The notes under the pieces: model-generated
Told to the model about the DNA's origin: nothing
Seen by the model: only the letters and a program-made list of their open reading frames with translations
The model's database searches: none
Program-made: the position numbers and the translations under genes
Shown: piece by piece, positions 16,086 to 28,621 of the stretch
How positions within the stretch are numbered: the first letter of the stretch is position 1
Layout: each line of letters begins with the position of its first letter
Assembly (NCBI GenBank): GCA_964620475.1
Contig: CAZUJN010000003.1
Coordinates: 5,647-69,646 of the forward strand
Source of the DNA: an uncultured Candidatus Saccharibacteria bacterium
Lineage (GTDB): Bacteria > Patescibacteriota > Minisyncoccia > Phycocordibacterales > CAIZLB01
Direction of reading: 5' to 3'
Length of the DNA stretch: 64,000 nucleotides

Positions 16086-16135
16086 GTAATAAAAAAGCAC
16101 ATGAACCCTTGTGGGGTGCATGTGCGTTTGACGGA
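16086..16135 (-). terminator. Terminator hairpin module, copy 1 of a duplicated ~45-bp element
   Basis: AAAAAGCACATGAACCCttgTGGGGTGCATGTGC; on the minus strand this reads as a hairpin plus T-run after gene 16153..16893. Confidence 0.6.
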
Positions 16136-16152
16136 CCAACCGTCATGACGAT

Positions 16153-16893
16153 TCACATCTTGGCATCTTCAATGGCGAGGCCGATAACCTCGATGTATTT
16201 CTTGAGGAGGTCTTCTCCTCCTTCCTTTAGGCGCCGCCCAGCGAACTTGGCGACGTCTTTATCCGGAAAAGCTTCGAAGACCTTATCCTCAAGATCCCAT
16301 TGATTTGGGGTCTTGGTGAGTTCACCGGCGCGGATGCGCTTGGCAATCTCATCAGCGGGCAAGTTATTCTCAAGCCAAATCTCGGCGAGACTAAAGTCTG
16401 AAACGATATCTCCCTCAAGCCACTTCTTGTATTTCTCCTGATTCTCCTTCTGGAGCATCAACTGGAAAGACACATTAATAGTGGAGAGAGTTCGACGAAG
16501 GTTATGCTGTTGTTCTTCGGGAAGTTTTTTGAATTCTTCCTTGAAACGAGGCTGGATTGCGAGGTAGGTATCCTTCAACTTAGAACCGTCGAAGAAGTAA
16601 CCCTTGATACGAGCGACAACAATGGTTCGACCTTGGAGATAGGATTCCCAGCCGTCTTTGTCCGTGACCCCGAGATTCTCATATGTCACATCACGGGCCG
16701 AATAATAGAGACCGTGCCCAGTCTCCTTCATTCCATACTCCTTTGCAGACTTCCAGAGTTCGTCGAACACCCGTTCGACTAGCAACTCTTTGACCGAGAA
16801 GGCCAAGAGTTTGCTAATGAGACCTTCGGCGATTTGCGCGCCGGTGACGGTGAGAACAAGAGCGGCAGTGATAGCGACAATCAGTTTTTTCAT
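16153..16893 (-). CDS. Secreted hypothetical protein encoded by a GC-rich (about 50% GC) gene
   Basis: Signal peptide MKKLIVAITAALVLTVTGA; its composition is clearly atypical for this genome. Confidence 0.65.
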   Translation of the reverse strand: MKKLIVAITAALVLTVTGAQIAEGLISKLLAFSVKELLVERVFDELWKSAKEYGMKETGHGLYYSARDVTYENLGVTDKDGWESYLQGRTIVVARIKGYFFDGSKLKDTYLAIQPRFKEEFKKLPEEQQHNLRRTLSTINVSFQLMLQKENQEKYKKWLEGDIVSDFSLAEIWLENNLPADEIAKRIRAGELTKTPNQWDLEDKVFEAFPDKDVAKFAGRRLKEGGEDLLKKYIEVIGLAIEDAKM

Positions 16894-16975: not shown

Positions 16976-17218
16976 TTATAAAATAAAGAAAAAAGCACAT
17001 GAACCCTTATGGGGTGTATGTGCGTTTGAAGCGAGGACTGGCCATGAACACTTTGAGAAATGTTCCCAATCACTGTTATCTGTTCTGAGCTCCATTCTTT
17101 TGTTGACCTTGAAGAAGCGATAGCCTTGATACCAAATGACAGCGTGGGATTGCATGGTCGACGACAAAATCCAGATGAGGGCTAAGATGAGAGTTTTCAT
17201 ACCCTGTTTATATTGCAT
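16976..17218 (-). CDS. Small secreted hypothetical protein (start likely at the internal MKTLIL)
   Basis: Signal peptide MKTLILALIWILSSTMQSHA. The C-terminus runs into the terminator hairpin, so the true stop is uncertain. Confidence 0.35.
   Translation of the reverse strand: MQYKQGMKTLILALIWILSSTMQSHAVIWYQGYRFFKVNKRMELRTDNSDWEHFSKCSWPVLASNAHTPHKGSCAFFFIL
16985..17033 (-). repeat. Terminator hairpin module, copy 2 (near-identical to 16086-16135)
   Basis: AAAAAAGCACATGAACCCttaTGGGGTGTATGTGC; it overlaps the 3' end of ORF 16976..17218. Confidence 0.6.
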
Positions 17219-17488
17219 GAAAAGAGAAATAAAATCAATATTATAATAATATGACCAAATTTAGTAAATCCTTCTCGAGCACTTTCACCACCTCTCTCTA
17301 ATTGGTGAGCCTTCTCGTGATAGAACCAAGTGGTTCATTACCCAGTAAGGCTATTTTTAGTAATTTTTAGATATTGGATTGACCCTTCTCGGGAGGTATA
17401 AAAAGTGACAAAAGTGACACGGGATAGACTATAAAGTTACAGTTTGATGTCACAAAATAATAATTAAAAATATCTAATGTTTTAATTA

Positions 17489-18448
17489 TTACTGCATATT
17501 CTGAACACAGCTTATCATCCAACCACTATCATTTTTCCTTAAAGTTATCATCATTTTATCAGATACTTTTTCTTGATTTCCTAAAATCATTTGACCTGTA
17601 AGATGAACATAAGCCCAATCTTCATTTATACTTATATGTGTTATATTATTTTCTCCTTCAAATTTTATTTTATCAAAATTAATTCCAAACATCTCTTTGT
17701 CAAAATTATGATCTTCAGAATAGATATAATTTACAGTATCAGAACATACAGATTGTAATTTTTCAACATCTTTTTTGTTAAAAGCATCAAAATATAAATC
17801 AATGACCTTCTTAACTTGTTTTTTGTCATCAATATCTTTTTTGGACAAAATAATATATTCATATACATCAAGATTTGATATAGTGTCAATTTCTTTAACG
17901 TCTTCTTTATAATAAAGTTTTAATGTGTCTATATTAGATTTTGCCATATTAAAATATATACCTTTTTCACAGTGATTAAAAACTAAAAATTGAGTATCGT
18001 CGTTTAATTGTTCAATATATTGATGTATCAATACTACATTTACAGAACTATTTATAATTTTATTAAATATATCATCTTCATATTTCTGACAATCATCTAG
18101 TATCAGATATGTTTTTTCAGATAATTTGCCCGACTCTATCTTTGAAAGCATGAATTTATTTGCAAGTTTAATCGCCTCATCTTCACCTATTTTTCTTCTG
18201 TCAAAAACAATGTGCAGATTTTTATTTTCAATATAGGTATTTTTTATATCATCTTCGTTTTCTATATATACTTTTTCTAATAGATTTGAATCCACGACAA
18301 TGTCATCAAAAGCTGAAAGGTATATAACATTTTTATTATTTTTAATAATTTCTTCAATTTGATTTTTTACAAAATAAGTTTTACCGGTACCAGCCCTTCC
18401 CATTATGTGTGTAAGTTTACTATTTAATAGTGATTGATTTGTTTGCAT
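17489..18448 (-). CDS. P-loop NTPase fused to a C-terminal NTF2-like (SnoaL/DUF4440-like) domain
   Basis: Walker A GRAGTGKT, Walker B YLILDD. The C-terminal ~110 aa has a hydrophobic alpha+beta cone pattern (DLYFDAFNKKDVEKL...DWAYVHLTG...DSGWMI). Confidence 0.65.
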   Translation of the reverse strand: MQTNQSLLNSKLTHIMGRAGTGKTYFVKNQIEEIIKNNKNVIYLSAFDDIVVDSNLLEKVYIENEDDIKNTYIENKNLHIVFDRRKIGEDEAIKLANKFMLSKIESGKLSEKTYLILDDCQKYEDDIFNKIINSSVNVVLIHQYIEQLNDDTQFLVFNHCEKGIYFNMAKSNIDTLKLYYKEDVKEIDTISNLDVYEYIILSKKDIDDKKQVKKVIDLYFDAFNKKDVEKLQSVCSDTVNYIYSEDHNFDKEMFGINFDKIKFEGENNITHISINEDWAYVHLTGQMILGNQEKVSDKMMITLRKNDSGWMISCVQNMQ

Positions 18449-18469
18449 GTGTTTATTATAACATTTTTA

Positions 18470-18479
18470 CCCCCCCCCC
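18470..18479. repeat. Homopolymeric C10 (G10 on the coding strand), 22-31 nt upstream of the ATPase-NTF2 start codon
   Basis: ACCCCCCCCCCA read directly from the sequence. Confidence 0.9.
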
Positions 18480-18602
18480 ACAAGTAAAAATTATATATAA
18501 TCAAATTAACTATTAAAAAATACCTTTTTCAAAAATTCTGTAAACGCATTCATTTCTTCTTGAAACTTATGTAGTCTTTCAGCAAATCTTTAGGTAATAA
18601 AG

Positions 18603-19244
18603 CTAAACTTTAATTTCTTGTATCGGTCCATAGAAACATTCTTGTCTATTTGTATACACTGCCCACATTCTATCTCCATAACAATAATGCCACCATTCAC
18701 CTGGATACCATACAAAACCAGCTCTTTCCATAGCTTCTCTCAATATTTTTCTATTTTGTTTTTGATCTTCATTTATATCTTCAGAAAACATTTTTGCAAG
18801 TTTGTAATTAGAAGATAATTGAATAACTGTACCCATATCAACAAATTCACCAGAATCTTTATATATCAAAGTTAAATCTATCGCCCCACCGCAATTATGA
18901 TTAGCCAGAGGTGATGGTTTAGCAACCAATAAACCTGTTTGTTTTTCCCAATAATCAATATCGCTATCTGGAAATTCTTTTTTCATATTTTCATAGCACA
19001 TATCCCATTGTTGTTTTTGTTTTTCAAGAGGTCTAACACCTTCAACTATATATAAGCAAAATTCATCAGGAAGATTATTTGATGCTTTTTCTAACATTTC
19101 TATTAGAGCTTTACGTATTTTTATATCAGAATTTGCAAGACATACCTTTGAAGTAGGTATAATATTTACAATATATTCATTGTTTTCATTAATGATTATA
19201 TTTTGCCATTTTTCTTTTGAAAGTGTATTAGAAACTTGATACAT
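18603..19244 (-). CDS. D-Ala-D-Ala dipeptidase, VanX/DdpX (M15D) family
   Basis: PSPLANHNCGGAIDLTL (SxHxxGxAxD) and PGEWWHY motifs. Confidence 0.8.
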   Translation of the reverse strand: MYQVSNTLSKEKWQNIIINENNEYIVNIIPTSKVCLANSDIKIRKALIEMLEKASNNLPDEFCLYIVEGVRPLEKQKQQWDMCYENMKKEFPDSDIDYWEKQTGLLVAKPSPLANHNCGGAIDLTLIYKDSGEFVDMGTVIQLSSNYKLAKMFSEDINEDQKQNRKILREAMERAGFVWYPGEWWHYCYGDRMWAVYTNRQECFYGPIQEIKV

Positions 19245-19300
19245 AGTAAAATTATATCACAACCATTACTGACTATACTCAAAAAGTTACAGTGGTGTAA

Positions 19301-19564
19301 TTATTTACCAAACACCTCTTTTCTTCTTCCGTTTGCAAATTCTATATAATCTCCCAAAGTATCCAATCCTATTTTTAAACGTCTTTCATTAACTGATTCA
19401 GGGTTTTCCAAATCAATAACCTCATAGGTTTGTTTTTCTTCATTGAAGGTTATTTGTGTACCATATAACTGTTGATCACCCTCTGCTATTCTTATCTTAT
19501 CTTCAAGATATGCCATATCTTTTTTATCAACTTCTTGATCTGAAAAATCTTTCATGTCTTCCAA
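19301..19564 (-). CDS. Hypothetical acidic small protein
   Basis: 87-aa ORF, operon-like with its neighbours. Confidence 0.45.
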   Translation of the reverse strand: MEDMKDFSDQEVDKKDMAYLEDKIRIAEGDQQLYGTQITFNEEKQTYEVIDLENPESVNERRLKIGLDTLGDYIEFANGRRKEVFGK

Positions 19565-19687
19565 AACTTTTTTCTTAAATTCAATATCTTGTGAATGTAA
19601 TAATACTGTAACAAAATGATGTGATGCTGATTTTCCAACTTTACTTATAGTCGGAAACCCTATTTGTTAATATATTGATTTTATCTT

Positions 19688-19813
19688 TTAAGAATTTTGA
19701 CTATCAATTTCTAAATCAAATTTGCCACCAGCTCGAGTTTCCTGATCTAACTTGTGTATTAATTCTATTTCGTCAGCAATGTCTTTATATGAGGGTATGA
19801 TTTCTTGATTCAT
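19688..19813 (-). CDS. Hypothetical 41-aa ORF (not in the ORF track)
   Basis: MNQEIIPSYKDIADEIELIHKLDQETRAGGKFDLEIDSQNS; it starts 10 nt after the upstream gene's stop. Confidence 0.2.
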   Translation of the reverse strand: MNQEIIPSYKDIADEIELIHKLDQETRAGGKFDLEIDSQNS

Positions 19814-19823
19814 AATGTTTTAA

Positions 19824-20204
19824 TTACCTATATTTTTTATAACCTTTTTTACTCATACAATTCATAACCTCTGTATTAAAACTTTGAGAATTTGTTTCTA
19901 TCAAACATTCTTCATTAGCAGTCATTCTTTTTTGCTCGGAATAATTTCCAGAAATCCATAGAATTAGTAACAAAAGAGCAAAAGCAATTAAACCTATAAA
20001 AAAATGCTTTGTACTTTTAAAAGAAAACCAAAGGATGTTTAAGATTAAATAAATTATGAGTAGTATAATTATTTGTATAGATAAAGTAAGGTTTCCAAGT
20101 ACCATATTTTGCAGACCTAATAGGTAAAGTATTGTTAGTGACAATACAATATAAGTAATTAGTTTTGATTTTGTAAAATAAAAAAATTGTTTTATTAAAT
20201 TCAT
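19824..20204 (-). CDS. Hypothetical membrane protein (3 TM)
   Basis: Hydrophobic helices; C-terminal basic tail. Confidence 0.5.
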   Translation of the reverse strand: MNLIKQFFYFTKSKLITYIVLSLTILYLLGLQNMVLGNLTLSIQIIILLIIYLILNILWFSFKSTKHFFIGLIAFALLLLILWISGNYSEQKRMTANEECLIETNSQSFNTEVMNCMSKKGYKKYR

Positions 20205-20514
20205 GGTGATAATTATACCACAACTATTAAGCCTTGATGTTAGCCGTGTTAGGGATTTTTCACATTTCTCATTTTAAATATTTTTTATACATATCAATAT
20301 AGCCATATAAACAAAGGTTCATATACACTTTACTCATAAAACATCAAAATCATTAATCGGAGCATTTGTATGTTGCTGATAAAATTTAATCGTACCCTTG
20401 AAAAGGGGTATAAAAAAATTGTCTAAACAATAATAAATTAACAATAAGCAAAAAAACAAAAACATGGAAAACAAAAATAAAACATAAATAAAAAAAATAT
20501 AAACAAACAAAATT

Positions 20515-21801
20515 ATGAGTAAAAAATTAAGCTGGACAACAACCCAAAAAACAATAAACGAATTAATCCCTCAAAAGATTAATCCCAGAACAATTACAGA
20601 AAAACAAATTTCCGATCTTACTAGAAGCTTGAAGAAGTATAACCTAGTAGAGATACCTGCTATAGACTTAGACGGGACAATACTGGCTGGTCACCAAAGG
20701 ATCAAAGTGATGAAGATACTCGGACGAGGTGATGAACTTATAGATGTCCGCATGCCAAATCGTAAATTAACAGAGCAGGAGTCAAATGAATACCTAATAG
20801 CTTCGAACAAACTCGGCGGAGACTGGGATTATGATCTGTTAAAGACATTTGAATTCGACACTCTTGAGTTTGCAGGATTCGACAAGATAGAACTTACTAA
20901 TATGTGGGATGGAGATAAGAAAGCTGAAGATGATGAATTTATCATAGAGAAAGAATTGAAAGAAATAAAGGTTCCAAAAACAAAGATTGGGGATATTATT
21001 AAACTTGGCAAGCATAAGATTATTTGTGGCGATTCCACTAAACAAGAAACACTCACAAGGCTTTTGGGTAATGAGAAGGTGTCAATGATTTATTCGGATC
21101 CAGTGTATAACATAAACGTGAACTATGGTGGTGGTATTGGAGGTCAACAAAATTATGGTGGTGATGTAAACGACTCAAGAACATTTGATGAGTACAGGAA
21201 GTTTTTAAAAAACAGTATCGAGTGTGCGTTGGCGGTATCCAAACAGCATACTCATATATTTTACTGGTGCGACCAGATATATATCGGAGTGGTGCAAGAT
21301 ATTTATAGATCATTAGGTATAGAGAATAAAAGAGTATGTCTATGGATAAAGAATAATCAAAACCCTGTCCCTACTGTAGCGTTTAATAAAGTGTATGAAC
21401 CAGTGGTTTATGGAGTTCGGGGAAAACCACATCTTACAAAAACCATCCAGAATCTAAATGAGGTGATGAACAAAGAACTAACCACAGGTAACAACCTACT
21501 GGAAGAAATAAATGACATATGGATAGCAAAAAGGCTTTCCTCAAAAGATTATGAACATGCAACATCTAAACCAATAGAACTTCATGAAAAAGCTATAAGA
21601 AGATGTAGTAAGATGGGTGATATTATCCTAGATAGTTTTCTTGGCTCTGGAAGCACATTGATTGCAGGAGAAGCTCTGGGTCGAAGAGTTTATGGGTGTG
21701 AACTTGAGCCAGTATTTTGTGATCTTATAATCCGTCGATACGAAAAACTTACTGGCACTAAAGCAGTGATAGAACACCATGAAGAAAAACAAGGTCTATA
21801 A
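20515..21801 (+). CDS. ParB-like nuclease domain fused to an N4/N6 DNA methyltransferase (phage-type orphan methylase)
   Basis: N-terminal ParB/Srx fold (LAGHQRIKVMK). DPVYNI lies at the position of the catalytic DPPY; C-terminal SAM motif DSFLGSGST (beta-class order). Confidence 0.8.
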   Translation: MSKKLSWTTTQKTINELIPQKINPRTITEKQISDLTRSLKKYNLVEIPAIDLDGTILAGHQRIKVMKILGRGDELIDVRMPNRKLTEQESNEYLIASNKLGGDWDYDLLKTFEFDTLEFAGFDKIELTNMWDGDKKAEDDEFIIEKELKEIKVPKTKIGDIIKLGKHKIICGDSTKQETLTRLLGNEKVSMIYSDPVYNINVNYGGGIGGQQNYGGDVNDSRTFDEYRKFLKNSIECALAVSKQHTHIFYWCDQIYIGVVQDIYRSLGIENKRVCLWIKNNQNPVPTVAFNKVYEPVVYGVRGKPHLTKTIQNLNEVMNKELTTGNNLLEEINDIWIAKRLSSKDYEHATSKPIELHEKAIRRCSKMGDIILDSFLGSGSTLIAGEALGRRVYGCELEPVFCDLIIRRYEKLTGTKAVIEHHEEKQGL

Positions 21802-22177
21802 AAATTTCTTAGAGGAATTAGAGAGAACACCTATAATTTCTATTGCCTGTGAAAAATCTAACATATCCAGAAATACCTTTTATCGTTGGATGAAGGAAGA
21901 TAAAAATTTTTCACTACTAGCAAATGAATCACTGAAAAGAGGTATTGATCTAGTTAACGACGTGGCTGAAAGTAATATCCTTAACGGTATCAAAAATCAG
22001 GATAGAAAATCAACCGAGTATTGGCTTAGTCATAGACACCCTGTATACAAAAAACAGAATTATTATCATAAGGAAGATACAAGAGCGTTGGATAAAAAAA
22101 ACCATGAACAAAAAATAGAAGAAGCAAGGCGAAGAATGACTGAGTTTCAAGATAAATGGTTTAAGAAAGGTAAATGA
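21779..22177 (+). CDS. Terminase small subunit-like / homeodomain-like HTH protein
   Basis: ISRNTFYRWMKEDKNF HTH region; overlaps the methylase gene by 23 nt. Confidence 0.5.
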   Translation: MKKNKVYKNFLEELERTPIISIACEKSNISRNTFYRWMKEDKNFSLLANESLKRGIDLVNDVAESNILNGIKNQDRKSTEYWLSHRHPVYKKQNYYHKEDTRALDKKNHEQKIEEARRRMTEFQDKWFKKGK

Positions 22178-22178
22178 T

Positions 22179-22637
22179 TTACGACCTAACCTTATCTTTC
22201 AATTCATCAATTCTCTTCTTTACATTATATGGAGATTCGATATTTTTGAGTACAATCTCTAAACTACCAGATCCTGCTGTGTTTATAGCAATAGCACCTG
22301 AATGGCTTATCACTCTATCAAAAAAAGGTTCTCTAACATGAACATCGGTTATTTTCTGATAATCAATACTTGTTGTATTTGTAGATAGCCAACCTTTGTG
22401 TATTAAAATTCTTTTGTTAGTAAGTGCATAAACATTTGCAACTTTTTGGTAAAAACGAAAATTAAATAGAGCAATAAGAAATACAATTATTCCCATACCG
22501 AATGCTGGTAATAAAAATACACTCACTATACCCCAGATTATTAATTGTACTTTTAAGTATCTTCTACCTAGAGAAAACTCCAATTCTACTTTTTCGTCTG
22601 CATTTAGGGTTTTATCCCAGATTTTTTCATTTGTCAT
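22179..22637 (-). CDS. Bacterial PH-domain (bPH_2, YdbS/YdbT-like) membrane protein
   Basis: Two TMs followed by ALTNKRILIHKGWLSTNTTSIDYQKITDVHVREPFFDR. Confidence 0.6.
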   Translation of the reverse strand: MTNEKIWDKTLNADEKVELEFSLGRRYLKVQLIIWGIVSVFLLPAFGMGIIVFLIALFNFRFYQKVANVYALTNKRILIHKGWLSTNTTSIDYQKITDVHVREPFFDRVISHSGAIAINTAGSGSLEIVLKNIESPYNVKKRIDELKDKVRS

Positions 22638-22989
22638 AATTTTGCTTGATCGGCTTTAAAATTATTTGATAATAATGATGTGTTTTCTGTTGTATACAAA
22701 AAGCCCATCACGGGTAAGAGCCGAAGCTCTTCGTACCAGTTTCCCGATACGGCGATCAAGCAAAACCCCATGACGGGTTCTTTACACTTGATCGACTTTA
22801 GACCATATCCTTTAAAGTTAATTAAAGGGGTTAGGTCACAATTTGGTTGTAATTCCATAATACTTTATTTCAAAGTATTAGTCTATATTATATCGCTGAT
22901 TATAGCTTTTGCTAAGCTATTACGACCATGTAATAAAACCGCTGTTTTGCATAGCTATGCACCTGTAATGGTTGCGACACAATTGATAT

Positions 22990-24261
22990 ATGCAAGACAC
23001 AGAACTTAAATATTGCTTATACGCACGTAAATCAACCGAGGGGGATGAAAAACAAGCTTTATCAATAGACTCTCAGATAAAAGAAATGTTACAGATTGCA
23101 GAACGTGAAAACCTAAAAATTATCGAGATCAGAAAAGAATCACACTCAGCGAAGGAATCTAGTCAAAGACCAGTATTTGAAGAAATTGTTAAAGATATAG
23201 ATGGTGGTATTTTTAACTCAATAATAACTTGGGCACCTGATAGACTTTCTCGTAATGCAGGGGACCTTGGAAAATTAGTAGATAGAATGGATCAAAAAAA
23301 ATTAATTCAGATTAAAACTTTTGGACAAAATTTCACAAACTCTCCAAGTGATAAATTCCTATTAATGATTTTATGTTCTCAAGCAAAGCTTGAAAATGAT
23401 AATAAGAGTATCAATGTGAAGCGAGGTATGAGAACTCGTTGTGAGATGGGTTTATGGCCAGCACAACCACCCACAGGCTATAGAAAAGTAAATGATAGAA
23501 CTGCTAAGTGTGAAGTAGAGATTGATCCAGATAGATACAACACCATAAGACAAATATTTGAAAAAATTGCATATGAAAAGTGGAGCGTGTCTAAAGTTCA
23601 CGCATGGTTAAGATATGATATTAATTTCAAAACACAACGTGGATATAACTTAAGTATTGGAAATGTTTTTAAAATAATTAATAACACTTTTTACTATGGT
23701 AGATTTGAATTTCCTCAAGGAAGTGGTATTTGGTATGAAGGTATACATAAACCAATAATAACAAAAGAATTATTTGACGAGACACGAAGTGCTGTGAAAT
23801 CTCAAGTTATAAAATCACAAGGTAAAGAATTTGCTTTTACTAGAATTATGAAGTGTGGGGTGTGCGGATCTGGAATTACCGCTGATGAGAAGTTTAAGAA
23901 GATAAAGCATGGTGGAGTTAACAGATATGTATATTACAGATGCACAAAAGCAAAAGATAGGAATTGTAAAAATCCTGCTTTAAACGAAACTGAATTAATA
24001 GAATCTTTTATTAGTATGATTAATAAACTTAATATCAACAAAGTTAAACTTACAACAAAACTTGATATCGAGATACAAAAGTTCAAGAAGTTGCAAGCAA
24101 TGTTTTTAGGTAGAAAGAAAACAGAGAAAATAGAATCTATAGATCTTAAGGATTATATGAAATTTGTACTCAAGGAAGGCTCTATTTTAGAGCAAAGGGC
24201 TGTGTTGGAGTGTATCGAAAGTGAATTATTTATGAATAATAAAAAGATAAGAACTGATTAA
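22990..24261 (+). CDS. Large serine recombinase (resolvase/integrase family with zinc ribbon)
   Basis: YARKSTEGDEKQALSIDSQ catalytic region, DRLSRN, CGVCGSG...YYRC zinc ribbon, C-terminal coiled coil. Confidence 0.85.
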   Translation: MQDTELKYCLYARKSTEGDEKQALSIDSQIKEMLQIAERENLKIIEIRKESHSAKESSQRPVFEEIVKDIDGGIFNSIITWAPDRLSRNAGDLGKLVDRMDQKKLIQIKTFGQNFTNSPSDKFLLMILCSQAKLENDNKSINVKRGMRTRCEMGLWPAQPPTGYRKVNDRTAKCEVEIDPDRYNTIRQIFEKIAYEKWSVSKVHAWLRYDINFKTQRGYNLSIGNVFKIINNTFYYGRFEFPQGSGIWYEGIHKPIITKELFDETRSAVKSQVIKSQGKEFAFTRIMKCGVCGSGITADEKFKKIKHGGVNRYVYYRCTKAKDRNCKNPALNETELIESFISMINKLNINKVKLTTKLDIEIQKFKKLQAMFLGRKKTEKIESIDLKDYMKFVLKEGSILEQRAVLECIESELFMNNKKIRTD

Positions 24262-24262
24262 C

Positions 24263-26482
24263 TTAATTAATACCAAAGGTATTATAATGATCTATATCGA
24301 CACTCTTAATTACATCAAAATAATTTTTAATTCTCTGTTTACAGCCCTGTAAGACTGCAATATCATACTTTTCAAGACCTAAAAATTCATGTGATCCATG
24401 ATTAATGAAACGATTCATAACCTTCTCTTCTTGACCTACTTCCTGTACTATAATATCTTTTTGTGCAGGGTCTGTTTTTTTTAGTCTAATATCTTTATAG
24501 TTTGTATACAGTTGTTTTAGTTTGCTTTTTAAATCTCCATGACCATACTTAAAATGTAGAAAAGTTTCAATTGATCGACGAAGTAAATTGGCTGCCAAAA
24601 TTGCATCATCTAAACTCGTACTATCTTTTATATCATTAAGTTTAGTAATCGCATACAAATAGTCCGATCTATAGTTTTTAAGACTTTCATCAAGTATTTT
24701 TATTGATGACCCGGCATTATTCATACTTATTTGATAAAAGTTGACTAAATCATATTTAATTGTTCCGTCAGGCTTTTTATAATCCTGAAGTAGGTGTCCA
24801 AAAAAATCTAAATTGTGTGTAAAAATAAAATATTGCCGATTATCATCCTGCTCAATCTCACCAGACAGAATAGCATATACTTGGAAAAGTGAATCAGAAT
24901 CTAGACTGGATACAGGATCATCAATAACAATAATTGCATCATTATCTAATTTATCATCTTCATCATTAATTGAAAGTAAAAAATAAGCAAGCGCTAAGAA
25001 ATTTCTTTCACCTTCACTCAAATTGTCTAAACTACACTTTACGCTGTCTCTTTTTAAAACGTATCCAACTTCTTCAGTGGAATCATCAAGCTCTATTTTT
25101 TTATATGGAAAAGTTGAAGCCAACAATCTATTTATTCGATCAGCTGGAATTTGAACATTTTTTGCTTCTTTTTTAAGATCTTTTAATTCTTGTTCAAGTT
25201 TTTTTATTTCATTGCTCTTATCTAATCTACTTTTTAAGCAATCTGTGTAGACTTTCTTTTTATCAAGATATTTTAAATATTCAATGGCAACATAATGAGT
25301 TTCAACGGACCATGCTGTTTTATTGACATCAAAGACCTCTTCATCAATAAAGAGATTATTAAACTCACAAGAATCTATCCCTTTAATTTTATTTTCTTTT
25401 TTGATTTTTATTTTTTCTTGTAAAGTGATAAAAAAAGTTTTCAAACTCTTTTTCTCTGAAGTGTAAAAAAATTCGCAGGAAATAATCTCATTTAAAGCAT
25501 CTTCAGTGCTTTTACTTAAAATGTCTAATATATTATTTAATTCAATAACATCATTAGAAAAATTTTTTAATAATTCATCTCTGTTTTGAATTTTCGAACC
25601 ACAAAAAAGACAGGTATCGAGCTTCTCGTCCTCATTATAAAGTTTATGTATATCTACACCCTTTCTAACCCAATCTTCTTCTTTACCTCCGTCAGGATAA
25701 CTACTCATTCTCATGGATTTTTCATAAACTGGAGTAAATTTTAAATATTTATTTATTTTTTCTAGATTTTCAATTACCCAATAATTCCATTTCTTGAGAA
25801 TTTTATATTCTCTTTCTTTTTCAGATAAATTTGAAAGTGTCGCTAATAGTTTTTTTAATTTATCGTCGTCTTTTATAAAGTTTTCTAATTGATTACCTCT
25901 ATTAATCTGTTTTGACAGCCAGTCCACCCTTACCTCAAAAGAACTTTTATCATATCCTGTGAAATTTCCAACTCCTCCAGTAGCAGGATCTTTTTTAATA
26001 TGACCAATACCAGGTAGCAATTTAATGAATTTAGAAGCATTTTGAGATATATCTTCATACTCATTCTTGCACTGAGGAAGTTTAAGAAGCTCGTCTCTAG
26101 CAATATCTAATTCTTTTTGTTTGTTAGAGAAATCAACCTCTGTGGCACCTATTGCAACGACATATTTTAAATGAGTTTGATCTATAATCTTTTTTATATA
26201 ATCTTCATTAAAAACACGAATTTTACTTTCATAACCAGAAAGTTCGTCTTGTTTTTTTGCACCCGTATCAAATCCTACAGTAAAATTTGCTCCACTTATT
26301 TTACTTCCACTCTCAATTATCCCTTTCTCATAAGATTGTAGAATTCTAGATATAATCGTTTTTCCACACCCGTTCCAACCTAATAAAATATTTACTTTAC
26401 TATGAAATTCTGGAATAGTTGTGTCCCATTGAAAGTTTTTAAATGTACCGAAATTAATTGATTGTATCTTTTTAATTTTCAT
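24263..26482 (-). CDS. RloC-like ABC-type ATPase with zinc-hook coiled-coil insertion and putative C-terminal HEPN-like anticodon-nuclease domain
   Basis: Walker A GWNGCGKT; ABC signature LSEGERNFLALAYFL; Walker B IVIDDPVSSLD. The coiled-coil insert has CLFCG (CxxC); the C-terminus has RRSIETFLH (Rx6H). It overlaps the upstream methyltransferase gene by 11 nt. Confidence 0.55.
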   Translation of the reverse strand: MKIKKIQSINFGTFKNFQWDTTIPEFHSKVNILLGWNGCGKTIISRILQSYEKGIIESGSKISGANFTVGFDTGAKKQDELSGYESKIRVFNEDYIKKIIDQTHLKYVVAIGATEVDFSNKQKELDIARDELLKLPQCKNEYEDISQNASKFIKLLPGIGHIKKDPATGGVGNFTGYDKSSFEVRVDWLSKQINRGNQLENFIKDDDKLKKLLATLSNLSEKEREYKILKKWNYWVIENLEKINKYLKFTPVYEKSMRMSSYPDGGKEEDWVRKGVDIHKLYNEDEKLDTCLFCGSKIQNRDELLKNFSNDVIELNNILDILSKSTEDALNEIISCEFFYTSEKKSLKTFFITLQEKIKIKKENKIKGIDSCEFNNLFIDEEVFDVNKTAWSVETHYVAIEYLKYLDKKKVYTDCLKSRLDKSNEIKKLEQELKDLKKEAKNVQIPADRINRLLASTFPYKKIELDDSTEEVGYVLKRDSVKCSLDNLSEGERNFLALAYFLLSINDEDDKLDNDAIIVIDDPVSSLDSDSLFQVYAILSGEIEQDDNRQYFIFTHNLDFFGHLLQDYKKPDGTIKYDLVNFYQISMNNAGSSIKILDESLKNYRSDYLYAITKLNDIKDSTSLDDAILAANLLRRSIETFLHFKYGHGDLKSKLKQLYTNYKDIRLKKTDPAQKDIIVQEVGQEEKVMNRFINHGSHEFLGLEKYDIAVLQGCKQRIKNYFDVIKSVDIDHYNTFGIN

Positions 26483-27461
26483 GACTCTTCAAATCTTTCA
26501 TTATTTTTTTTGCTAAAAAGTGTGCAAGGTTAACAGGTACAGCATTACCGATCATCTTATAGCCATTTGCCACATCATTATATTTAAAAATAAATGTATC
26601 AGGAAATGTCTGAACTCTTGCACATTCACGGACAGATAAACGACGATATAAATGTTCTTTTCCAGGAACAAATATTCTTTTATTTTGTTCAATAAATTTC
26701 ATTTTTGGAGCTTGTGGGTGGAGTGGAGCATGACGACCACCAGCCTGAATGGTAAAGGAAGGTTCATCCCAAGATCTAACACGATTTCTTGACATATATA
26801 TAGTCGAAAAACCACCAATCATGTACTCATGATTTGGAATTTTCAATTTATCACCATTAGTTTTATTTTTATCTTTTGCAGGTTTTGCTAATCGTAAATC
26901 GTAAATAGCATCCTTTAGAACAGGTTTATGCTTTTGAGGCTCAGGAAATTCAAATTTCTTTTTTAATTTTTTATGATATCCGACAATAATTACACGAAGT
27001 CTATCTTCAGGAACACCGTAATCATTTGCGTTTAATAATTTCCAAGAAATCACATACCCCGCACTCTCAAATGATTTAATTATGTTATTAAATGCATCTG
27101 CATGTTTTGGATGAAGTATACCTGAAACATTTTCTGCTAAAAAGAATTTTGGTTGTTTTTCTTTTAATAATCTAACATAATCAAAAAACAACTGACCTCT
27201 CTTATCATCTATACCACGACCAGCCCCGGCTTCACTCCAACTCTGACATGGTGGACCTCCAATAATTCCATCTACATCGGGTATATCTGAGTGGGATACG
27301 TTAACAATACTTCGTCGATCAAGTTTTGTTTTAGGAAAATTATGTTCAAAAGTCTCCCAAATAGTTGAATCATATTCATTAGCCCATACAACATGAAAAC
27401 CAGCCTTTTCAAAACCTAGATCGAGTCCTCCTGCACCAGTGAATAATGAAGCTATTTTCAT
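26472..27461 (-). CDS. C5-cytosine DNA methyltransferase
   Basis: Motif I FTGAGGLDLGF, motif IV GGPPCQSWS, motif VI ENV. Confidence 0.9.
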   Translation of the reverse strand: MKIASLFTGAGGLDLGFEKAGFHVVWANEYDSTIWETFEHNFPKTKLDRRSIVNVSHSDIPDVDGIIGGPPCQSWSEAGAGRGIDDKRGQLFFDYVRLLKEKQPKFFLAENVSGILHPKHADAFNNIIKSFESAGYVISWKLLNANDYGVPEDRLRVIIVGYHKKLKKKFEFPEPQKHKPVLKDAIYDLRLAKPAKDKNKTNGDKLKIPNHEYMIGGFSTIYMSRNRVRSWDEPSFTIQAGGRHAPLHPQAPKMKFIEQNKRIFVPGKEHLYRRLSVRECARVQTFPDTFIFKYNDVANGYKMIGNAVPVNLAHFLAKKIMKDLKSHEN

Positions 27462-27465
27462 AAAT

Positions 27466-28446
27466 TTAATCTTTACTTATATTTAGTGTATTTTTAAATA
27501 ATGTTTTTGGAGCTTTTATAAGGTTTATATCAAACTTTAAAGAAGACTCCACCCTAGAACTTGCATTGTGTATCCTAAATGAAAGTACCCAGTCATTGTT
27601 CATTGTAACAATAGCAGTTGTAATACTATCATTTTTAAAATCAACATCTAAAATTTCTGTTGGGAGCGGAACTTTAGGTGTTTTGTATTTTGGTTGAATA
27701 TCTTTAAAAGGAAGATTTAGTGTTCCATTAATATTATAAGCATGTATCTCAATTGAGTTTTTACCTTTTATAACTTTATAAAAATCTTTATTTCCAACTA
27801 AATACGCGACTAGATTAGATGCAACTTTTACAGGATCTTTTTCATATAGATCTTTTAATTCTTTTATAAATGCTTTCAAAATTGGAGTATATACAGAAGT
27901 GTGGTAGTCACCTAGTTCACTCCATTTTTTCTTAGCACCACTTTCTTTTCTAATATTTTCAAGATTTTGAAAAATAGGTGTTATTGTATTAAAATATTCT
28001 TTAGAATTTTTTATTCCTAACCACTTATCTCCAAAATCTATATTTGAAGAGAGCCTAGAGTGTTTAACTGCTTTATGATTATTTTTTGCAGATACCCCAA
28101 TTTCCCATTTTTGGAGGAGACGAATAGCTATGACATCACGGACATCTCCAGATTTACCATGATTATCTGATAAGATTTCAAGTTGTAAAATATCATCCTT
28201 ACCGATATCATTTGAAAGTCTAGGCTCTATATCAATTAAGAAATTTACAGCAAAACTTGCCGACAATAAATATTCACTTTTTTCACTATTTGTAACACTG
28301 TCAAAACAACTTTTAGCAACACTAAAAGCAGAATTTGTAATAATCTCTATATTTGTCTTATCCTTAAGCTTCTCTTCAAAGGAAATAAGAAGAGCGTATT
28401 CGAAGGATTTTCCTGTTGTCATCTGTTTTGAATTTGTACTTGCCAT
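27466..28446 (-). CDS. Type II restriction endonuclease, apparently HaeIII/NgoPII-like family (GGCC-type); partner of the m5C methylase
   Basis: Stops 4 nt before the methyltransferase start. Pattern GDVRDVIAIR...WEIGVSAKNNHKAVKHSRLS...KWSEL...FYKVI...LSFRIHNAS...SLKFDI recalled as HaeIII-family; this needs a database check. Confidence 0.5.
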   Translation of the reverse strand: MASTNSKQMTTGKSFEYALLISFEEKLKDKTNIEIITNSAFSVAKSCFDSVTNSEKSEYLLSASFAVNFLIDIEPRLSNDIGKDDILQLEILSDNHGKSGDVRDVIAIRLLQKWEIGVSAKNNHKAVKHSRLSSNIDFGDKWLGIKNSKEYFNTITPIFQNLENIRKESGAKKKWSELGDYHTSVYTPILKAFIKELKDLYEKDPVKVASNLVAYLVGNKDFYKVIKGKNSIEIHAYNINGTLNLPFKDIQPKYKTPKVPLPTEILDVDFKNDSITTAIVTMNNDWVLSFRIHNASSRVESSLKFDINLIKAPKTLFKNTLNISKD

Positions 28447-28546
28447 AATTATAACAGTGATTATATCACATTAATTTATGCATAACACTGACATGAAAAA
28501 CCTTATCATTTCGACCCTTCTCGAGTGCTCGAACTAGTGCTCGACA

Positions 28547-28621
28547 TGGTGACCCCACGGAGAGTCGAACTCCGGTTAACAGATTGAGAACCTGCTGTCC
28601 TAACCACTAGACGATGGGGCC
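28547..28621 (-). tRNA. tRNA-Glu (anticodon CUC), CCA encoded
   Basis: GGCCCCAUCGUCUAGUGGUUAGGAC...; anticodon loop UUCUCAA; T-arm CGGAGUUCGACUCUCCG; acceptor pairs; 3' CCA. Confidence 0.75.

What the first reader, a model, noticed from the sequence alone, without database searches (positions are those of the whole stretch)
17489..18479. P-loop NTPase fused to an NTF2-like domain, with a G10 homopolymer in its 5' leader
A Walker A/B NTPase core (GRAGTGKT, YLILDD) is fused to a ~110-aa SnoaL/NTF2-like C-terminal domain. This is an unusual fusion with no housekeeping analogue, sitting at the edge of the defence island next to a VanX peptidase. A poly-G(10) tract lies 22-31 nt upstream of the ATG, exactly where an RBS or leader would sit. 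Tracts of this length are slippage-prone and typical of phase-variable genes. It is the only homopolymer of 10 or more in the window.
Basis: partly seen in the sequence, partly recalled or inferred. Interest (0 to 1): 0.55.

Follow-up and report, generated by a model that had tools for sequence, protein, structure and literature searches.

The report
Poly-G promoter tract before rare ATPase
In an uncultivated Paceibacteria (CPR) genome, a very rare gene that fuses a small DNA-motor-type ATPase to an NTF2-like domain has a run of ten G's inside its promoter (not in an mRNA leader); the run is G8 in relatives, so it is a plausible but unproven slippage-driven expression dial.

Summary
The minus-strand CDS 17489-18448 (319 aa) has Walker A GRAGTGKT and Walker B YLILDD. 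G10 lies at 18470-18479, 22-31 nt upstream of the ATG. It is the only G/C run of 7 or more in the window (0.005 runs of 10 or more expected).

A high-confidence AlphaFold model (pLDDT 92) and fold searches show two domains:
- Residues 1-205 are a minimal FtsK/HerA-type ATPase. The closest structures are the STIV B204 packaging ATPase, HerA and VirB4.
- Residues 207-319 are an NTF2-like (DUF4440/SnoaL) domain.

The fusion occupies one 50%-identity cluster among 1.84 billion representatives.

The "leader/RBS" reading is wrong. None of 63 ORFs in the window has a Shine-Dalgarno-like motif, and first genes carry TGnTATAAT 6-9 nt before the ATG, which indicates leaderless mRNAs. The tract therefore sits at about -22 to -31 of the promoter. 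With G10, TTGTGG lies 17 bp from TATAAT. Relatives with conserved flanks carry G8, giving 15 bp.

A second promoter-proximal poly-G, upstream of a DGR reverse transcriptase in related genomes, reads G10, G11 and G10 in near-identical strains.

Phase variation of the porA type is plausible but untested, because no read data were available. The protein's function is unknown; it sits in a tRNA-Glu-linked defence island.

The parts
17489..18448 (-). CDS, 319 aa plus stop: ATPase-NTF2 fusion protein
   Evidence: ORF list and translation. The N-terminus is conserved in 4 homologues. An identical protein, P0001, is in the NCBI-derived collection.
17834..18448 (-). N-terminal domain (residues 1-205): minimal FtsK/HerA-superfamily P-loop ATPase
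   Evidence: Stand-alone 191-213 aa homologues end exactly at this boundary. Remote profile hits are to TrwB/TraG/VirD4/HerA-type proteins. The best PDB profile hit is the DptH ATPase domain. Foldseek top hits are STIV/STIV2 B204, HerA and VirB4/TrwK. In the viral library the top hits are the PH1 ATPase, a Corticoviridae NTPase and A32-like ATPases.
18377..18400 (-). Walker A, GRAGTGKT (residues 17-24)
   Evidence: G22, K23 and T24 are invariant in 9 family members.
18092..18109 (-). Walker B, YLILDD (residues 114-119)
   Evidence: D118 is invariant.
18017..18025 (-). HQY motif at the end of the strand after Walker B. Q143 and Y144 are invariant. This is a candidate for the conserved sensor-strand glutamine of FtsK/HerA ATPases.
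   Evidence: Invariant columns Q143, Y144 and Q147. Strand E137-142 in the model. It aligns to the 'iLstQ' stretch of DptH.
17492..17830 (-). C-terminal domain (residues 207-319): NTF2-like (DUF4440/SnoaL_3/SgcJ-like) alpha+beta cone
   Evidence: Sub-threshold Pfam and NCBIfam hits. Profile hits to about 35 stand-alone DUF4440/SnoaL proteins. The model has three helices plus a curved sheet at pLDDT of about 90. Foldseek hits 3rob, 3cu3, 4ovm (SgcJ), 2r4i and 3gwr have probability 1.00.
18470..18479 (-). G10 homopolymer (C10 on the plus strand), at about -22 to -31 relative to the ATG / inferred transcription start
   Evidence: Chance expectation is 0.005 per window. The tract is G8 in L005/L001, L002 and L006, with conserved flanks.
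18455..18463 (-). Extended -10 element TGtTATAAT, ending 6 nt before the ATG (inferred promoter of a leaderless mRNA)
   Evidence: The same element and spacing occur in L005, L006, L003 (TGgTATAAT) and L004 (TGtTATCAT). The same arrangement is seen at about 10 other first genes in the window.
18478..18483 (-). -35-like hexamer TTGTGG. Its last two bases are the first two G's of the tract. The spacer to TATAAT is 17 bp with G10 and 15 bp with G8.
   Evidence: TTGnnn at 17-18 bp is seen at 3 other extended -10 promoters in the window and is absent at the others. It matches only 3 of 6 consensus positions and was not picked up by the consensus scan.
18449..18591 (-). Upstream segment shared with relatives: the remnant 3' end of an upstream ORF of L005/L006 plus the promoter. 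It is 94-97% identical to L005, while the coding region is about 80% identical.
   Evidence: blastn and sliding identity. Homology to L005/L006 stops at about 18591, 12 nt from the VanX-like stop codon.
17269..17391 (+). Three copies of (N)CCTTCTCG (17269, 17309, 17383) in the non-coding stretch just downstream of the gene. The same motif lies next to tRNA-Glu at 28515-28523. These are possible att-like boundary repeats of an island of about 11 kb.
   Evidence: The motif count alone is weak evidence (8 matches against 4.2 expected). The position beside the tRNA is what is suggestive.

Best explanation
**What is shown**
- The gene encodes a two-domain cytoplasmic protein: a minimal FtsK/HerA-superfamily ATPase (residues 1-205) fused to an NTF2-like DUF4440/SnoaL domain (residues 207-319).
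- It is a sporadic accessory gene of Paceibacteria (CPR). Here it is the last gene of an island of about 11 kb linked to tRNA-Glu. That island also carries a HaeIII-type R-M pair, a PDC-S06/AAA_13 gene, a second DNA methyltransferase and a large serine recombinase.

**What is inferred about expression**
- The gene is transcribed as a leaderless mRNA from an extended -10 promoter (TGtTATAAT) that ends 6 nt before the ATG.
- The G tract is promoter DNA. It supplies the last 2 bp of a -35-like TTGTGG and 8 bp of the spacer.
- With G10 the -35/-10 spacing is the optimal 17 bp. With G8, as in relatives, it is 15 bp.
- Replication slippage in the tract would therefore change promoter geometry and raise or lower transcription heritably and reversibly, as in the Neisseria porA poly-G promoter.
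- Because the extended -10 can work without a -35, the effect is more likely graded than strictly on/off.

**What is inferred about the protein (low confidence)**
- It is an ATP-driven oligomeric motor or switch of the DNA-translocase type.
- Its NTF2-like domain serves as an oligomerisation or ligand/partner-binding module.
- It acts in conflict with phages or mobile DNA.
For: **Anatomy**
- Searches give the motifs and the domain boundary.
- The AlphaFold model from a 39-sequence alignment has pLDDT 92.4 and pTM 0.75.
- Foldseek against PDB: B204 E 3e-8 over about 205 columns, plus HerA and VirB4. NTF2-like proteins score E 1e-6 over about 125 columns.
- Foldseek against BFVD: viral A32/PH1/Corticoviridae-type ATPases.
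- Profile hits go to TrwB/TraG/HerA proteins and to DptH.

**Rarity**
- Only 4 full-length proteins were found among 5.8 billion clusters, and one cluster among 1.84 billion representatives.

**Promoter reading**
- None of 63 ORFs has an SD-like motif.
- 10 of 16 TGnTA(T/C)AAT sites in the window sit 1-9 nt before an ORF start.
- The -10 box is kept 6 nt before the ATG in four further loci (4-7 nt in L004), including those lacking the tract.
- A Pribnow box 6-8 nt from the start codon is the recognised mark of leaderless genes (PMC6028130).
- The TTGTGG-17 bp-TATAAT geometry was verified.

**Instability**
- The tract is G10 here and G8 in L005/L002 and L006, with identical immediate flanks.
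- The genome otherwise avoids long homopolymers.
- A second promoter-proximal poly-G, in the bAvd/RT intergenic region of related genomes, reads G10, G11 and G10 in three near-identical strains.

**Analogue**
- The porA 11G tract lies between -35 and -10, and expression is graded in the order 11G > 10G > 9G (PMC3639595).

**Island context**
-.
Against: - No reads, transcription start mapping or expression data are available, so length heterogeneity within a population and any effect on transcription are untested.
- Only two length states (G10, G8) are seen in three lineages, and L005 and L006 are close relatives.
- The -35-like hexamer matches only TTG, and many promoters in this genome have no recognisable -35. 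Spacing may therefore matter little.
- Homologues in L003, L031, L032 and L004 have no tract, so it is not essential to the gene.
- A scan of metagenome contigs and one of viral contigs found no further copies of the tract-bearing promoter.
- For the protein: there is no conserved gene partner and no meaningful PADLOC hit (only a weak Walker-A-region match to mad8). No arginine finger is conserved across the family. In L003 and L004 the gene sits among housekeeping genes.
Confidence: 0.55

Rival explanations
1. **Static promoter element or neutral relic.** The G tract is a fixed, lineage-specific piece of promoter DNA, for example a stiff GC-rich spacer, a regulator binding site, or a leftover of a recombination junction. 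The G10/G8 difference is an ordinary fixed indel between lineages with little effect, because the extended -10 alone drives transcription.
For: - Many promoters in the window have TGnTATAAT without any recognisable -35.
- Homologues without the tract keep the same -10/ATG arrangement.
- Only two length states are observed.
- The upstream segment is a recombination mosaic with a breakpoint at about 18591.
Against: - A G10 run has a chance expectation of 0.005 per window in a genome that otherwise avoids homopolymers longer than 8. It would need selection to persist against slippage.
- The tract differs by 2 nt while 40 or more flanking bases are identical.
- A comparable tract at the DGR locus differs by 1 nt between near-identical strains.
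Confidence: 0.3
2. **First reader's version.** The tract is transcribed as part of a 5' leader from a promoter further upstream. It then acts after transcription, as an SD-like G-rich ribosome-binding stretch. One route would be through the 2-codon mini-ORF ATG-TTA-TAA (18464-18456), followed by re-initiation at the main ATG 7 nt later.
For: - A TATAAT hexamer lies about 20 nt upstream of the tract in the window and in L005.
- The G run is followed 5 nt later by an ATG.
Against: - No ORF in the window uses an SD-like motif (0 of 63).
- The tract is 22 nt from the real ATG, which is too far for an SD.
- The upstream TATAAT is disrupted by an insertion in L006, while the proximal TGtTATAAT is invariant.
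- The ATG of the mini-ORF is simply part of the extended -10 (A-TG-T-TATAAT).
- Tract length changes occur at the 5' side and would not alter SD-to-ATG spacing.
Confidence: 0.08
3. **Sequencing or assembly artefact.** The tract comes from poly-G produced by two-colour Illumina chemistry, or its length is mis-called.
For: - Poly-G artefacts exist in NovaSeq/NextSeq data (general knowledge).
- Homopolymer lengths are error-prone.
Against: - The tract lies in the middle of a 64-kb window, not at a contig end.
- It recurs at the homologous position with conserved flanks in independent assemblies from NCBI MAGs and a Logan assembly.
Confidence: 0.03
4. **Protein-function rival.** The gene is a domesticated or resident viral or mobile-element DNA-packaging or DNA-transfer ATPase of the B204/P9/A32 or VirB4/VirD4 type, serving an integrated element rather than defence.
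For: - The best structural matches are viral packaging ATPases of the same size, about 205 aa.
- Remote sequence hits are to T4SS coupling proteins.
- A serine recombinase lies in the same island and next to the gene in L005.
Against: - No capsid, portal, T4SS or other virion genes are detectable among the neighbours by Pfam or PHROGs.
- No gene partner is conserved across the loci compared.
- In L003 and L004 the gene is a solitary insertion between housekeeping genes.
- There is no Pox_A32 or PRD1-P9 family match at the sequence level.
Confidence: 0.2

Closest known systems
Neisseria meningitidis porA promoter poly-G tract (also opc and fetA): simple-sequence-repeat phase or 'volume' variation through -35/-10 spacing
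   Same: A G homopolymer of about 10 nt lies between a -35-like and a -10 element. The optimal 17-bp spacing occurs at one tract length. Length differs between relatives. Expression is expected to be graded (PMC3639595; geometry checked).
   Different: The organism is an uncultivated CPR bacterium. The promoter is an extended -10 type driving a leaderless mRNA, so the -35 may be dispensable. The regulated gene is a cytoplasmic ATPase, not a surface antigen. Switching and an expression effect have not been demonstrated here.
STIV/STIV2 B204 and other A32/P9-like genome-packaging ATPases (FtsK/HerA superfamily)
   Same: Same size (about 205 aa) and same fold for residues 1-205 (Foldseek E 3e-8, TM 0.58-0.67 normalised to the target). 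Walker A and Walker B are present.
   Different: Only 14-19% identity, with no family-level sequence match. There is no viral genome context or capsid gene. The protein carries an extra C-terminal NTF2-like domain.
HerA / VirB4 / TrwB-VirD4 / DptH ATPase modules (DNA translocases of repair, conjugation and the Sir2-HerA, HerA-DUF4297 and Dnd defence systems)
   Same: Same ATPase superfamily by profile and by fold. The gene lies in a defence island, as do the HerA-based defence systems.
   Different: It lacks the HAS-barrel, membrane or all-alpha accessory domains. It has no partnered effector gene (Sir2, DUF4297 or a nuclease). It is much smaller.
Stand-alone DUF4440/SnoaL_3/SgcJ-type NTF2-like proteins, including CaMKII-association-domain-like proteins
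   Same: Same fold, and the family motif DWAY is present in residues 207-319.
   Different: Here the domain is fused to an ATPase, an arrangement not seen in any other cluster. Pfam scores are below the gathering thresholds.
Stand-alone 191-213 aa mini-ATPases (P0006-P0009, P0012, P0053)
   Same: 25-35% identical across residues 10-205. They share invariant G22 K23 T24, G88, D118, Q143 Y144 and Q147, and the same C-terminal boundary.
   Different: They have no NTF2 domain. They sit in varied cellular contexts with no island and no poly-G.

Membership tests
FtsK/HerA superfamily of P-loop (ASCE) ATPases | Walker A GxxGxGK[ST] | tested here: met
   GRAGTGKT at residues 17-24. G22, K23 and T24 are invariant in 9 members.
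FtsK/HerA superfamily of P-loop (ASCE) ATPases | Walker B hhhhD[DE] | tested here: met
   YLILDD at residues 114-119. D118 is invariant.
FtsK/HerA superfamily of P-loop (ASCE) ATPases | Conserved glutamine at the end of the sensor-1 strand (a family feature recalled from the Iyer et al. classification, not re-read here) | tested here: met
   Invariant Q143 directly follows strand E137-142. It aligns with the 'stQ' of DptH.
FtsK/HerA superfamily of P-loop (ASCE) ATPases | Arginine finger contributed in trans in a hexameric ring | tested here: inconclusive
   No arginine is invariant across the 9-member alignment. R84 is conserved only in the four fusion proteins. The oligomeric state cannot be tested.
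FtsK/HerA superfamily of P-loop (ASCE) ATPases | Fold similarity to solved members | tested here: met
   Foldseek: B204 E 3e-8, HerA 4d2i E 2e-6, VirB4/TrwK 8rtb and 7o41 E about 1e-5. The PDB profile hit to DptH has E 6e-5.
A32/P9/B204-like viral genome-packaging ATPase | Encoded in a virus or provirus next to capsid genes | tested here: not met
   Neighbours have no capsid or virion hits in Pfam or PHROGs. No neighbour is conserved across loci. In L003 and L004 the gene sits between housekeeping genes.
A32/P9/B204-like viral genome-packaging ATPase | Sequence-level match to the family models | tested here: not met
   No Pox_A32 or related Pfam hit. The only PHROG hit is an unknown-function family at E 1.5e-4 over residues 7-73.
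NTF2-like superfamily (DUF4440 / SnoaL_3 / SgcJ) | Pfam or NCBIfam model match above the curated cut-off | tested here: not met
   DUF4440 scores 19.6 bits against a 25.2 cut-off. SnoaL_3 scores 16.7 against 22. TIGR02246 scores 16.7 against 33.95. The matches are full-length but sub-threshold.
NTF2-like superfamily (DUF4440 / SnoaL_3 / SgcJ) | Profile-level homology to bona fide members | tested here: met
   The family profile hits about 35 stand-alone proteins over positions 205-319 (E down to 2e-8). One example, P0010, is DUF4440 at E 2.8e-15.
NTF2-like superfamily (DUF4440 / SnoaL_3 / SgcJ) | Alpha+beta cone fold: three helices packed on a curved antiparallel sheet | tested here: met
   Model elements are H203-224, H228-233 and H251-260, plus strands 261-275, 278-289, 298-306 and 309-317. 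Foldseek hits to 3rob, 4ovm, 2r4i, 3gwr and others have probability 1.00.
Simple-sequence-repeat phase-variable promoter (porA type) | [quoted passage not shown] | tested here: met
   G10 at 18470-18479. TTGTGG-17 bp-TATAAT with an extended TG. The promoter itself is inferred from sequence and from the genome-wide pattern.
Simple-sequence-repeat phase-variable promoter (porA type) | Tract length differs among close relatives while the flanks are conserved | tested here: met
   G10 in the window against G8 in L005/L002 and L006. This covers only two states and three lineages.
Simple-sequence-repeat phase-variable promoter (porA type) | High-frequency reversible length heterogeneity within a population | not testable with these tools
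   No reads are available. Metagenome and viral pattern scans found no extra copies.
Simple-sequence-repeat phase-variable promoter (porA type) | Expression level depends on tract length | not testable with these tools
   This needs reporter or transcript data.
Leaderless mRNA gene | -10 box 6-8 nt upstream of the start codon, with no SD | tested here: met
   TATAAT ends 6 nt before the ATG. None of 63 ORFs has an SD-like motif. The criterion comes from PMC6028130. The transcription start site was not mapped.
Known anti-phage defence systems (PADLOC-DB v2) | Match to a defence-system protein model | tested here: not met
   The only hit is a weak match to mad8 over residues 12-50, which is the Walker A region (E 3.7e-5).

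The most novel reading that the evidence does not exclude
Poly-G tracts in promoters may be a general contingency-locus device in Paceibacteria/CPR bacteria. These genomes otherwise purge homopolymers longer than 8. Under this reading the tracts stochastically tune accessory conflict genes. Two examples were seen here:
- A unique ATPase-NTF2 single-gene module at the edge of a defence island.
- The reverse transcriptase of a diversity-generating retroelement in related genomes.

The ATPase-NTF2 protein would then be a new single-gene defence or exclusion factor built on a virus-like minimal DNA-motor ATPase.
Probability: 0.3. Interest if true: 0.7.

Novelty: new variant of a known kind. Interest (0 to 1): 0.55.

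Why it matters
- **Possible first case in CPR.** A full-text search found no paper that mentions both Patescibacteria and "phase-variable". If the tract does switch, it would show that ultra-small, host-dependent bacteria use the same stochastic, slippage-based expression control known from pathogens such as Neisseria and Campylobacter. Here it would be combined with leaderless transcription and applied to conflict genes rather than surface antigens.
- **An uncharacterised architecture.** The protein joins a virus-like minimal FtsK/HerA ATPase to an NTF2-like domain. The combination is found in essentially one small clade. It may point to a new single-gene defence or DNA-handling function.
- **A practical lesson for this lineage.** Sequence 20-30 nt upstream of a start codon is promoter, not leader. 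Gene and regulatory annotation should take this into account.

Tried and rejected
- **Extra copies in metagenomes.** I scanned metagenome contigs for TTTACTTGT-N(5-16)-TAAAAATGTTATAAT to collect more tract lengths. All 16 hits were chance AT-rich matches without G runs.
- **Extra copies in viral contigs.** A scan for GGGGGGGTAAAAATGTTATAAT found nothing.
- **First structure prediction.** The 4-sequence alignment gave pLDDT 53 and was unusable. It was replaced by a 39-sequence alignment.
- **Window contig look-up.** The window's own contig is not in the contig look-up, so no extra flank could be fetched.
- **Conserved gene partners.** All-against-all blastp of ORFs in 9 loci found none. Only the recombinase/MTase module is shared, with L005, and it sits on the other side of the gene there.
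- **Invertible promoter.** I looked for inverted repeats flanking the promoter that a serine recombinase could flip. Only weak AT-rich pairs appeared, so this idea was rejected.
- **Structured RNA near the gene.** Rfam found nothing at the gene or its flanks. The downstream 280 nt fold with z = -1.8, which is not significant.
- **SD or mini-ORF role for the tract.** Rejected because the genome shows no SD use.
- **KAP NTPase relationship.** The Fibrobacter 671-aa hits are 27% identical over the P-loop core. This is generic similarity, and the target has no KAP_NTPase Pfam hit.
- **Single-sequence PDB search of the C-domain.** Uninformative.
Full report
**1. Observation**

The gene is on the minus strand at 17489..18448 (319 aa). 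Walker A GRAGTGKT (residues 17-24) and Walker B YLILDD (residues 114-119) are present. On the minus strand the upstream sequence reads ...TTTTTACTTGT-G10-TAAAAATGTTATAATAAACAC-ATG. G10 is at 18470-18479, which is 22-31 nt before the ATG.

The window is 32.5% G+C. The next longest G/C run is 6 and the longest A/T run is 8. A first-order Markov model expects 0.005 G/C runs of 10 or more. It also expects 8.1 A/T runs of 9 or more, and none is observed. The genome avoids long homopolymers, so this tract is a striking exception.

**2. Organism and relatives**

The protein is almost unique.
- A word-indexed search of 5.8 billion clusters found 4 full-length proteins at 56-100% identity.
- An exhaustive HMM search of 1.84 billion 50%-identity representatives found a single full-length cluster.
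- That search also found a truncated fragment, five stand-alone ATPases of 203-213 aa matching positions 10-205, and dozens of stand-alone NTF2-like proteins matching positions 205-319.
- The stand-alone ATPases end exactly at the domain junction. The gene is therefore a true fusion of two otherwise independent modules.

The closest genome record is a "Candidatus Paceibacteria" MAG, GCA_041752275.1. The gene contexts seen fit CPR bacteria:
- small ribosomal-protein, MreB and FtsW neighbourhoods;
- a DGR;
- a 23S rRNA gene spanning about 3.4 kb against a 2.9-kb Rfam model.

**3. The protein**

Pfam, NCBIfam and PADLOC give only sub-threshold hits: AAA_19, KaiC, DUF4440, SnoaL_3, SgcJ/EcaC and mad8.

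A first AlphaFold run with 4 sequences was poor, at pLDDT 53. A second run used 39 sequences, including the stand-alone relatives of both halves. It gave pLDDT 92.4 and pTM 0.75.

Fold and profile results for the N-terminal domain:
- Foldseek against the PDB puts the STIV/STIV2 B204 genome-packaging NTPase first (E 3e-8, about 205 aligned columns, TM 0.58-0.67 on the target). HerA and VirB4/TrwK follow.
- Against viral models the best hits are the Haloarcula virus PH1 ATPase, a Corticoviridae NTPase, Sputnik V3 and NCLDV A32-like packaging ATPases.
- Independent sequence evidence agrees. Remote profile hits are TrwB_AAD_bind/TraG-D_C/DUF87 proteins. The best PDB profile hit is the ATPase domain of DptH.
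- Family invariants are G22, K23, T24, G88, D118, Q143, Y144 and Q147.
- The HQY glutamine follows the strand after Walker B, as expected for FtsK/HerA ATPases. No arginine finger is conserved across the whole family.

For the C-terminal domain, about 125 columns match NTF2-like proteins: 3rob, 3cu3, SgcJ 4ovm, 2r4i and the CaMKII-association-domain-like 3gwr.

**4. The tract is in the promoter, not a leader**

None of the 63 larger ORFs in the window has an SD-like motif within 20 nt of the start. Of 16 TGnTA(T/C)AAT sites in the window, 10 lie immediately (1-9 nt) upstream of an ORF start. These include the neighbouring VanX-like gene and the genes starting at 20204, 16062, 5009, 4054 and 1161. 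A Pribnow box 6-8 nt from the start codon is the recognised signature of leaderless transcription (PMC6028130).

For the target, TGtTATAAT (18463-18455) ends 6 nt before the ATG. The same arrangement is kept in every homologue:

| Locus | -10 region and start | Poly-G tract |
|---|---|---|
| L005 | TGtTATAAT-aaatac-ATG | G8 |
| L006 | TGtTATAAT-aaagaa-ATG | G8 |
| L003 | TGgTATAAT-ttttat-ATG | none |
| L004 | TGtTATCAT-atat-ATGATG | none |

The transcript therefore most likely begins at the ATG, and G10 is untranscribed promoter DNA at about -22 to -31. The hexamer TTGTGG (18483-18478) overlaps the first two G's and is 17 bp from TATAAT. With G8 the spacing would be 15 bp.

Three other extended -10 promoters in the window have TTGnnn at 17-18 bp, and the rest have none. 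The -35 is therefore optional in this genome, and any effect of tract length is probably graded.

**5. Length variation**

The window has G10. L005 (the same locus as L001), L002 (the same protein from a Logan assembly) and L006 (a separate MAG contig) have G8, with identical immediate flanks. L005 and L006 are close relatives across the coding region (93-100% nt identity), so there are effectively two lineages.

The 143 bp upstream of the ATG are 94-97% identical between the window and L005, whereas the coding region is about 80% identical. Between L005 and L006 the pattern is reversed, which indicates a recombination mosaic.

A second poly-G turned up while checking other loci. It lies in the bAvd/reverse-transcriptase intergenic region of a DGR in the genomes that carry the tract-less homologue P0003/P0054. 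It sits 13 nt upstream of the RT start codon. It reads G10 in L003, G11 in L031 and G10 in L032, with otherwise near-identical flanks.

In about 110 kb of related sequence examined, these two promoter-proximal sites are the only G/C runs of 7 or more. This supports real slippage at such tracts in this lineage. Within-population heterogeneity could not be examined.

**6. Context**

The features below are listed in the order they occur along the minus strand from tRNA-Glu. Coordinates are plus-strand coordinates.

| Coordinates | Feature |
|---|---|
| 28547-28621 | tRNA-Glu |
| 27466-28446 | HaeIII-type restriction endonuclease |
| 26472-27461 | C5 DNA methyltransferase |
| 24263-26482 | AAA_13 / PDC-S06 protein |
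| 22990-24261 | large serine recombinase |
| 22716-22837 | LOOT RNA (Rfam RF03000, 77 bits) |
| 22179-22637 | bPH protein |
| 21779-22177 | 132-aa protein |
| 20515-21801 | N4/N6 DNA methyltransferase |
| 19301-20204 | two small ORFs |
| 18603-19244 | VanX-like M15 peptidase |
| 17489-18448 | the target gene |

The motif CCCTTCTCG lies beside the tRNA at 28515. It recurs, exactly or with one mismatch, three times in the 270-nt non-coding stretch just after the target (17269, 17309, 17383). This suggests att-like boundaries of an island of about 11 kb with the target at its distal edge. The statistics of the motif alone are weak.

In L005 the gene is also near tRNA-Glu, but the recombinase-LOOT-MTase module lies on the other side of it. 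In L003, L031, L032 and L004 the gene is a solitary insertion between housekeeping genes, after 5S rRNA or next to a tRNA synthetase. No gene partner is conserved. No virion or T4SS genes are detectable nearby.

**7. Interpretation**

- Anatomy is shown: the fusion, the fold classes and the position of the tract relative to the -10 box.
- The leaderless promoter is strongly inferred from genome-wide and cross-homologue patterns.
- The regulatory role of tract length is inferred by analogy with porA. There an 11G tract between -35 and -10 gives graded expression in the order 11G > 10G > 9G (PMC3639595). The inference is supported by the inter-lineage polymorphism and the second locus.
- The protein's function is the weakest part. 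I favour an oligomeric ATP-driven DNA-motor or switch. Its NTF2-like domain would mediate assembly or ligand/partner recognition, and it would act in phage or mobile-element conflict. I hold this with low confidence.

**8. Novelty**

The regulatory principle is known. What would be new is its occurrence in CPR bacteria, on a leaderless extended -10 promoter, controlling a cytoplasmic accessory ATPase. No paper in the searched library combines Patescibacteria with "phase-variable". The domain architecture itself appears undescribed and is nearly unique in the databases.

Interest is moderate, at 0.55.

Noticed in passing
L003:10487-10496; L031:12505-12515; L032:7264-7273: A second promoter-proximal poly-G tract in related Paceibacteria. 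It lies in the divergent intergenic region between bAvd and the DGR reverse transcriptase, 13 nt before the RT start codon. It reads G10, G11 and G10 in three near-identical strains. This points to possible slippage control of a diversity-generating retroelement.
   Followed up: partly
window 22716-22837 (-); L005:10441-10562 (+): LOOT RNA (Rfam RF03000) at 77 and 76 bits against a gathering score of 46.4. It lies directly upstream of, and divergent from, the large serine recombinase gene in both genomes. The 91/109-aa 'ORFs' called there are probably spurious. No description of LOOT was found in the main text of the Weinberg 2017 paper.
   Followed up: partly
whole window: None of 63 ORFs has a Shine-Dalgarno-like motif. 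About 10 first genes carry TGnTATAAT 6-9 nt before the ATG. Leaderless transcription therefore seems to be the norm for operon-first genes in this Paceibacteria genome.
   Followed up: yes
whole window: There is a sharp cut-off of homopolymer length at 8. No A/T run of 9 or more is seen, against 8.1 expected from a first-order Markov model. This suggests selection against slippage-prone runs, perhaps linked to weak mismatch repair.
   Followed up: partly
window 16088-16131 and 16986-17029: A 44-nt direct repeat (93% identical) forms a GCACATG...CATGTGC hairpin followed by a T-run on the minus strand. These are terminator-like copies flanking the unknown 246-aa gene 16153-16893. The second copy lies inside the probably spurious 80-aa ORF 16976-17218.
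   Followed up: no
window 17269-17391 and 28515-28523: The CCTTCTCG motif occurs next to tRNA-Glu and three times just downstream of the target gene. These may be att-like repeats marking an island of about 11 kb, or several nested insertions.
   Followed up: partly
window 17484-24261 vs L005:7861-14424: The target cassette and the recombinase-LOOT-MTase module are in opposite relative order in the two genomes, as in a circular permutation. The recombinase stop codon abuts the neighbouring gene in both: 1 nt from AAA_13 in the window and 38 nt from the target in L005.
   Followed up: partly
window 18591-18603: Homology to L005/L006 upstream of the promoter stops 12 nt after the VanX-like stop codon. 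In the relatives an unrelated small ORF (71 or 55 aa) occupies that place. The VanX-like gene therefore sits at a recombination breakpoint and has its own leaderless promoter.
   Followed up: partly
window 24263-26482 (-), 26472-28446 (-): A PDC-S06 candidate defence gene (AAA_13, E 3e-74) lies next to a complete HaeIII-type R-M pair beside tRNA-Glu.
   Followed up: yes
L003:2323-5718: The 23S rRNA gene spans about 3.4 kb against a 2925-position Rfam model, implying insertions or introns of the kind reported for CPR rRNA genes. The ATPase-NTF2 homologue sits directly after the 5S rRNA terminator.
   Followed up: no
L008:4711-13907: In Fibrobacter, a 671-aa KAP-family NTPase distantly similar to the target's P-loop core lies inside a type I R-M island. 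That island also carries a Schlafen/AlbA_2 gene and an AAA_21-DUF4435 gene.
   Followed up: partly
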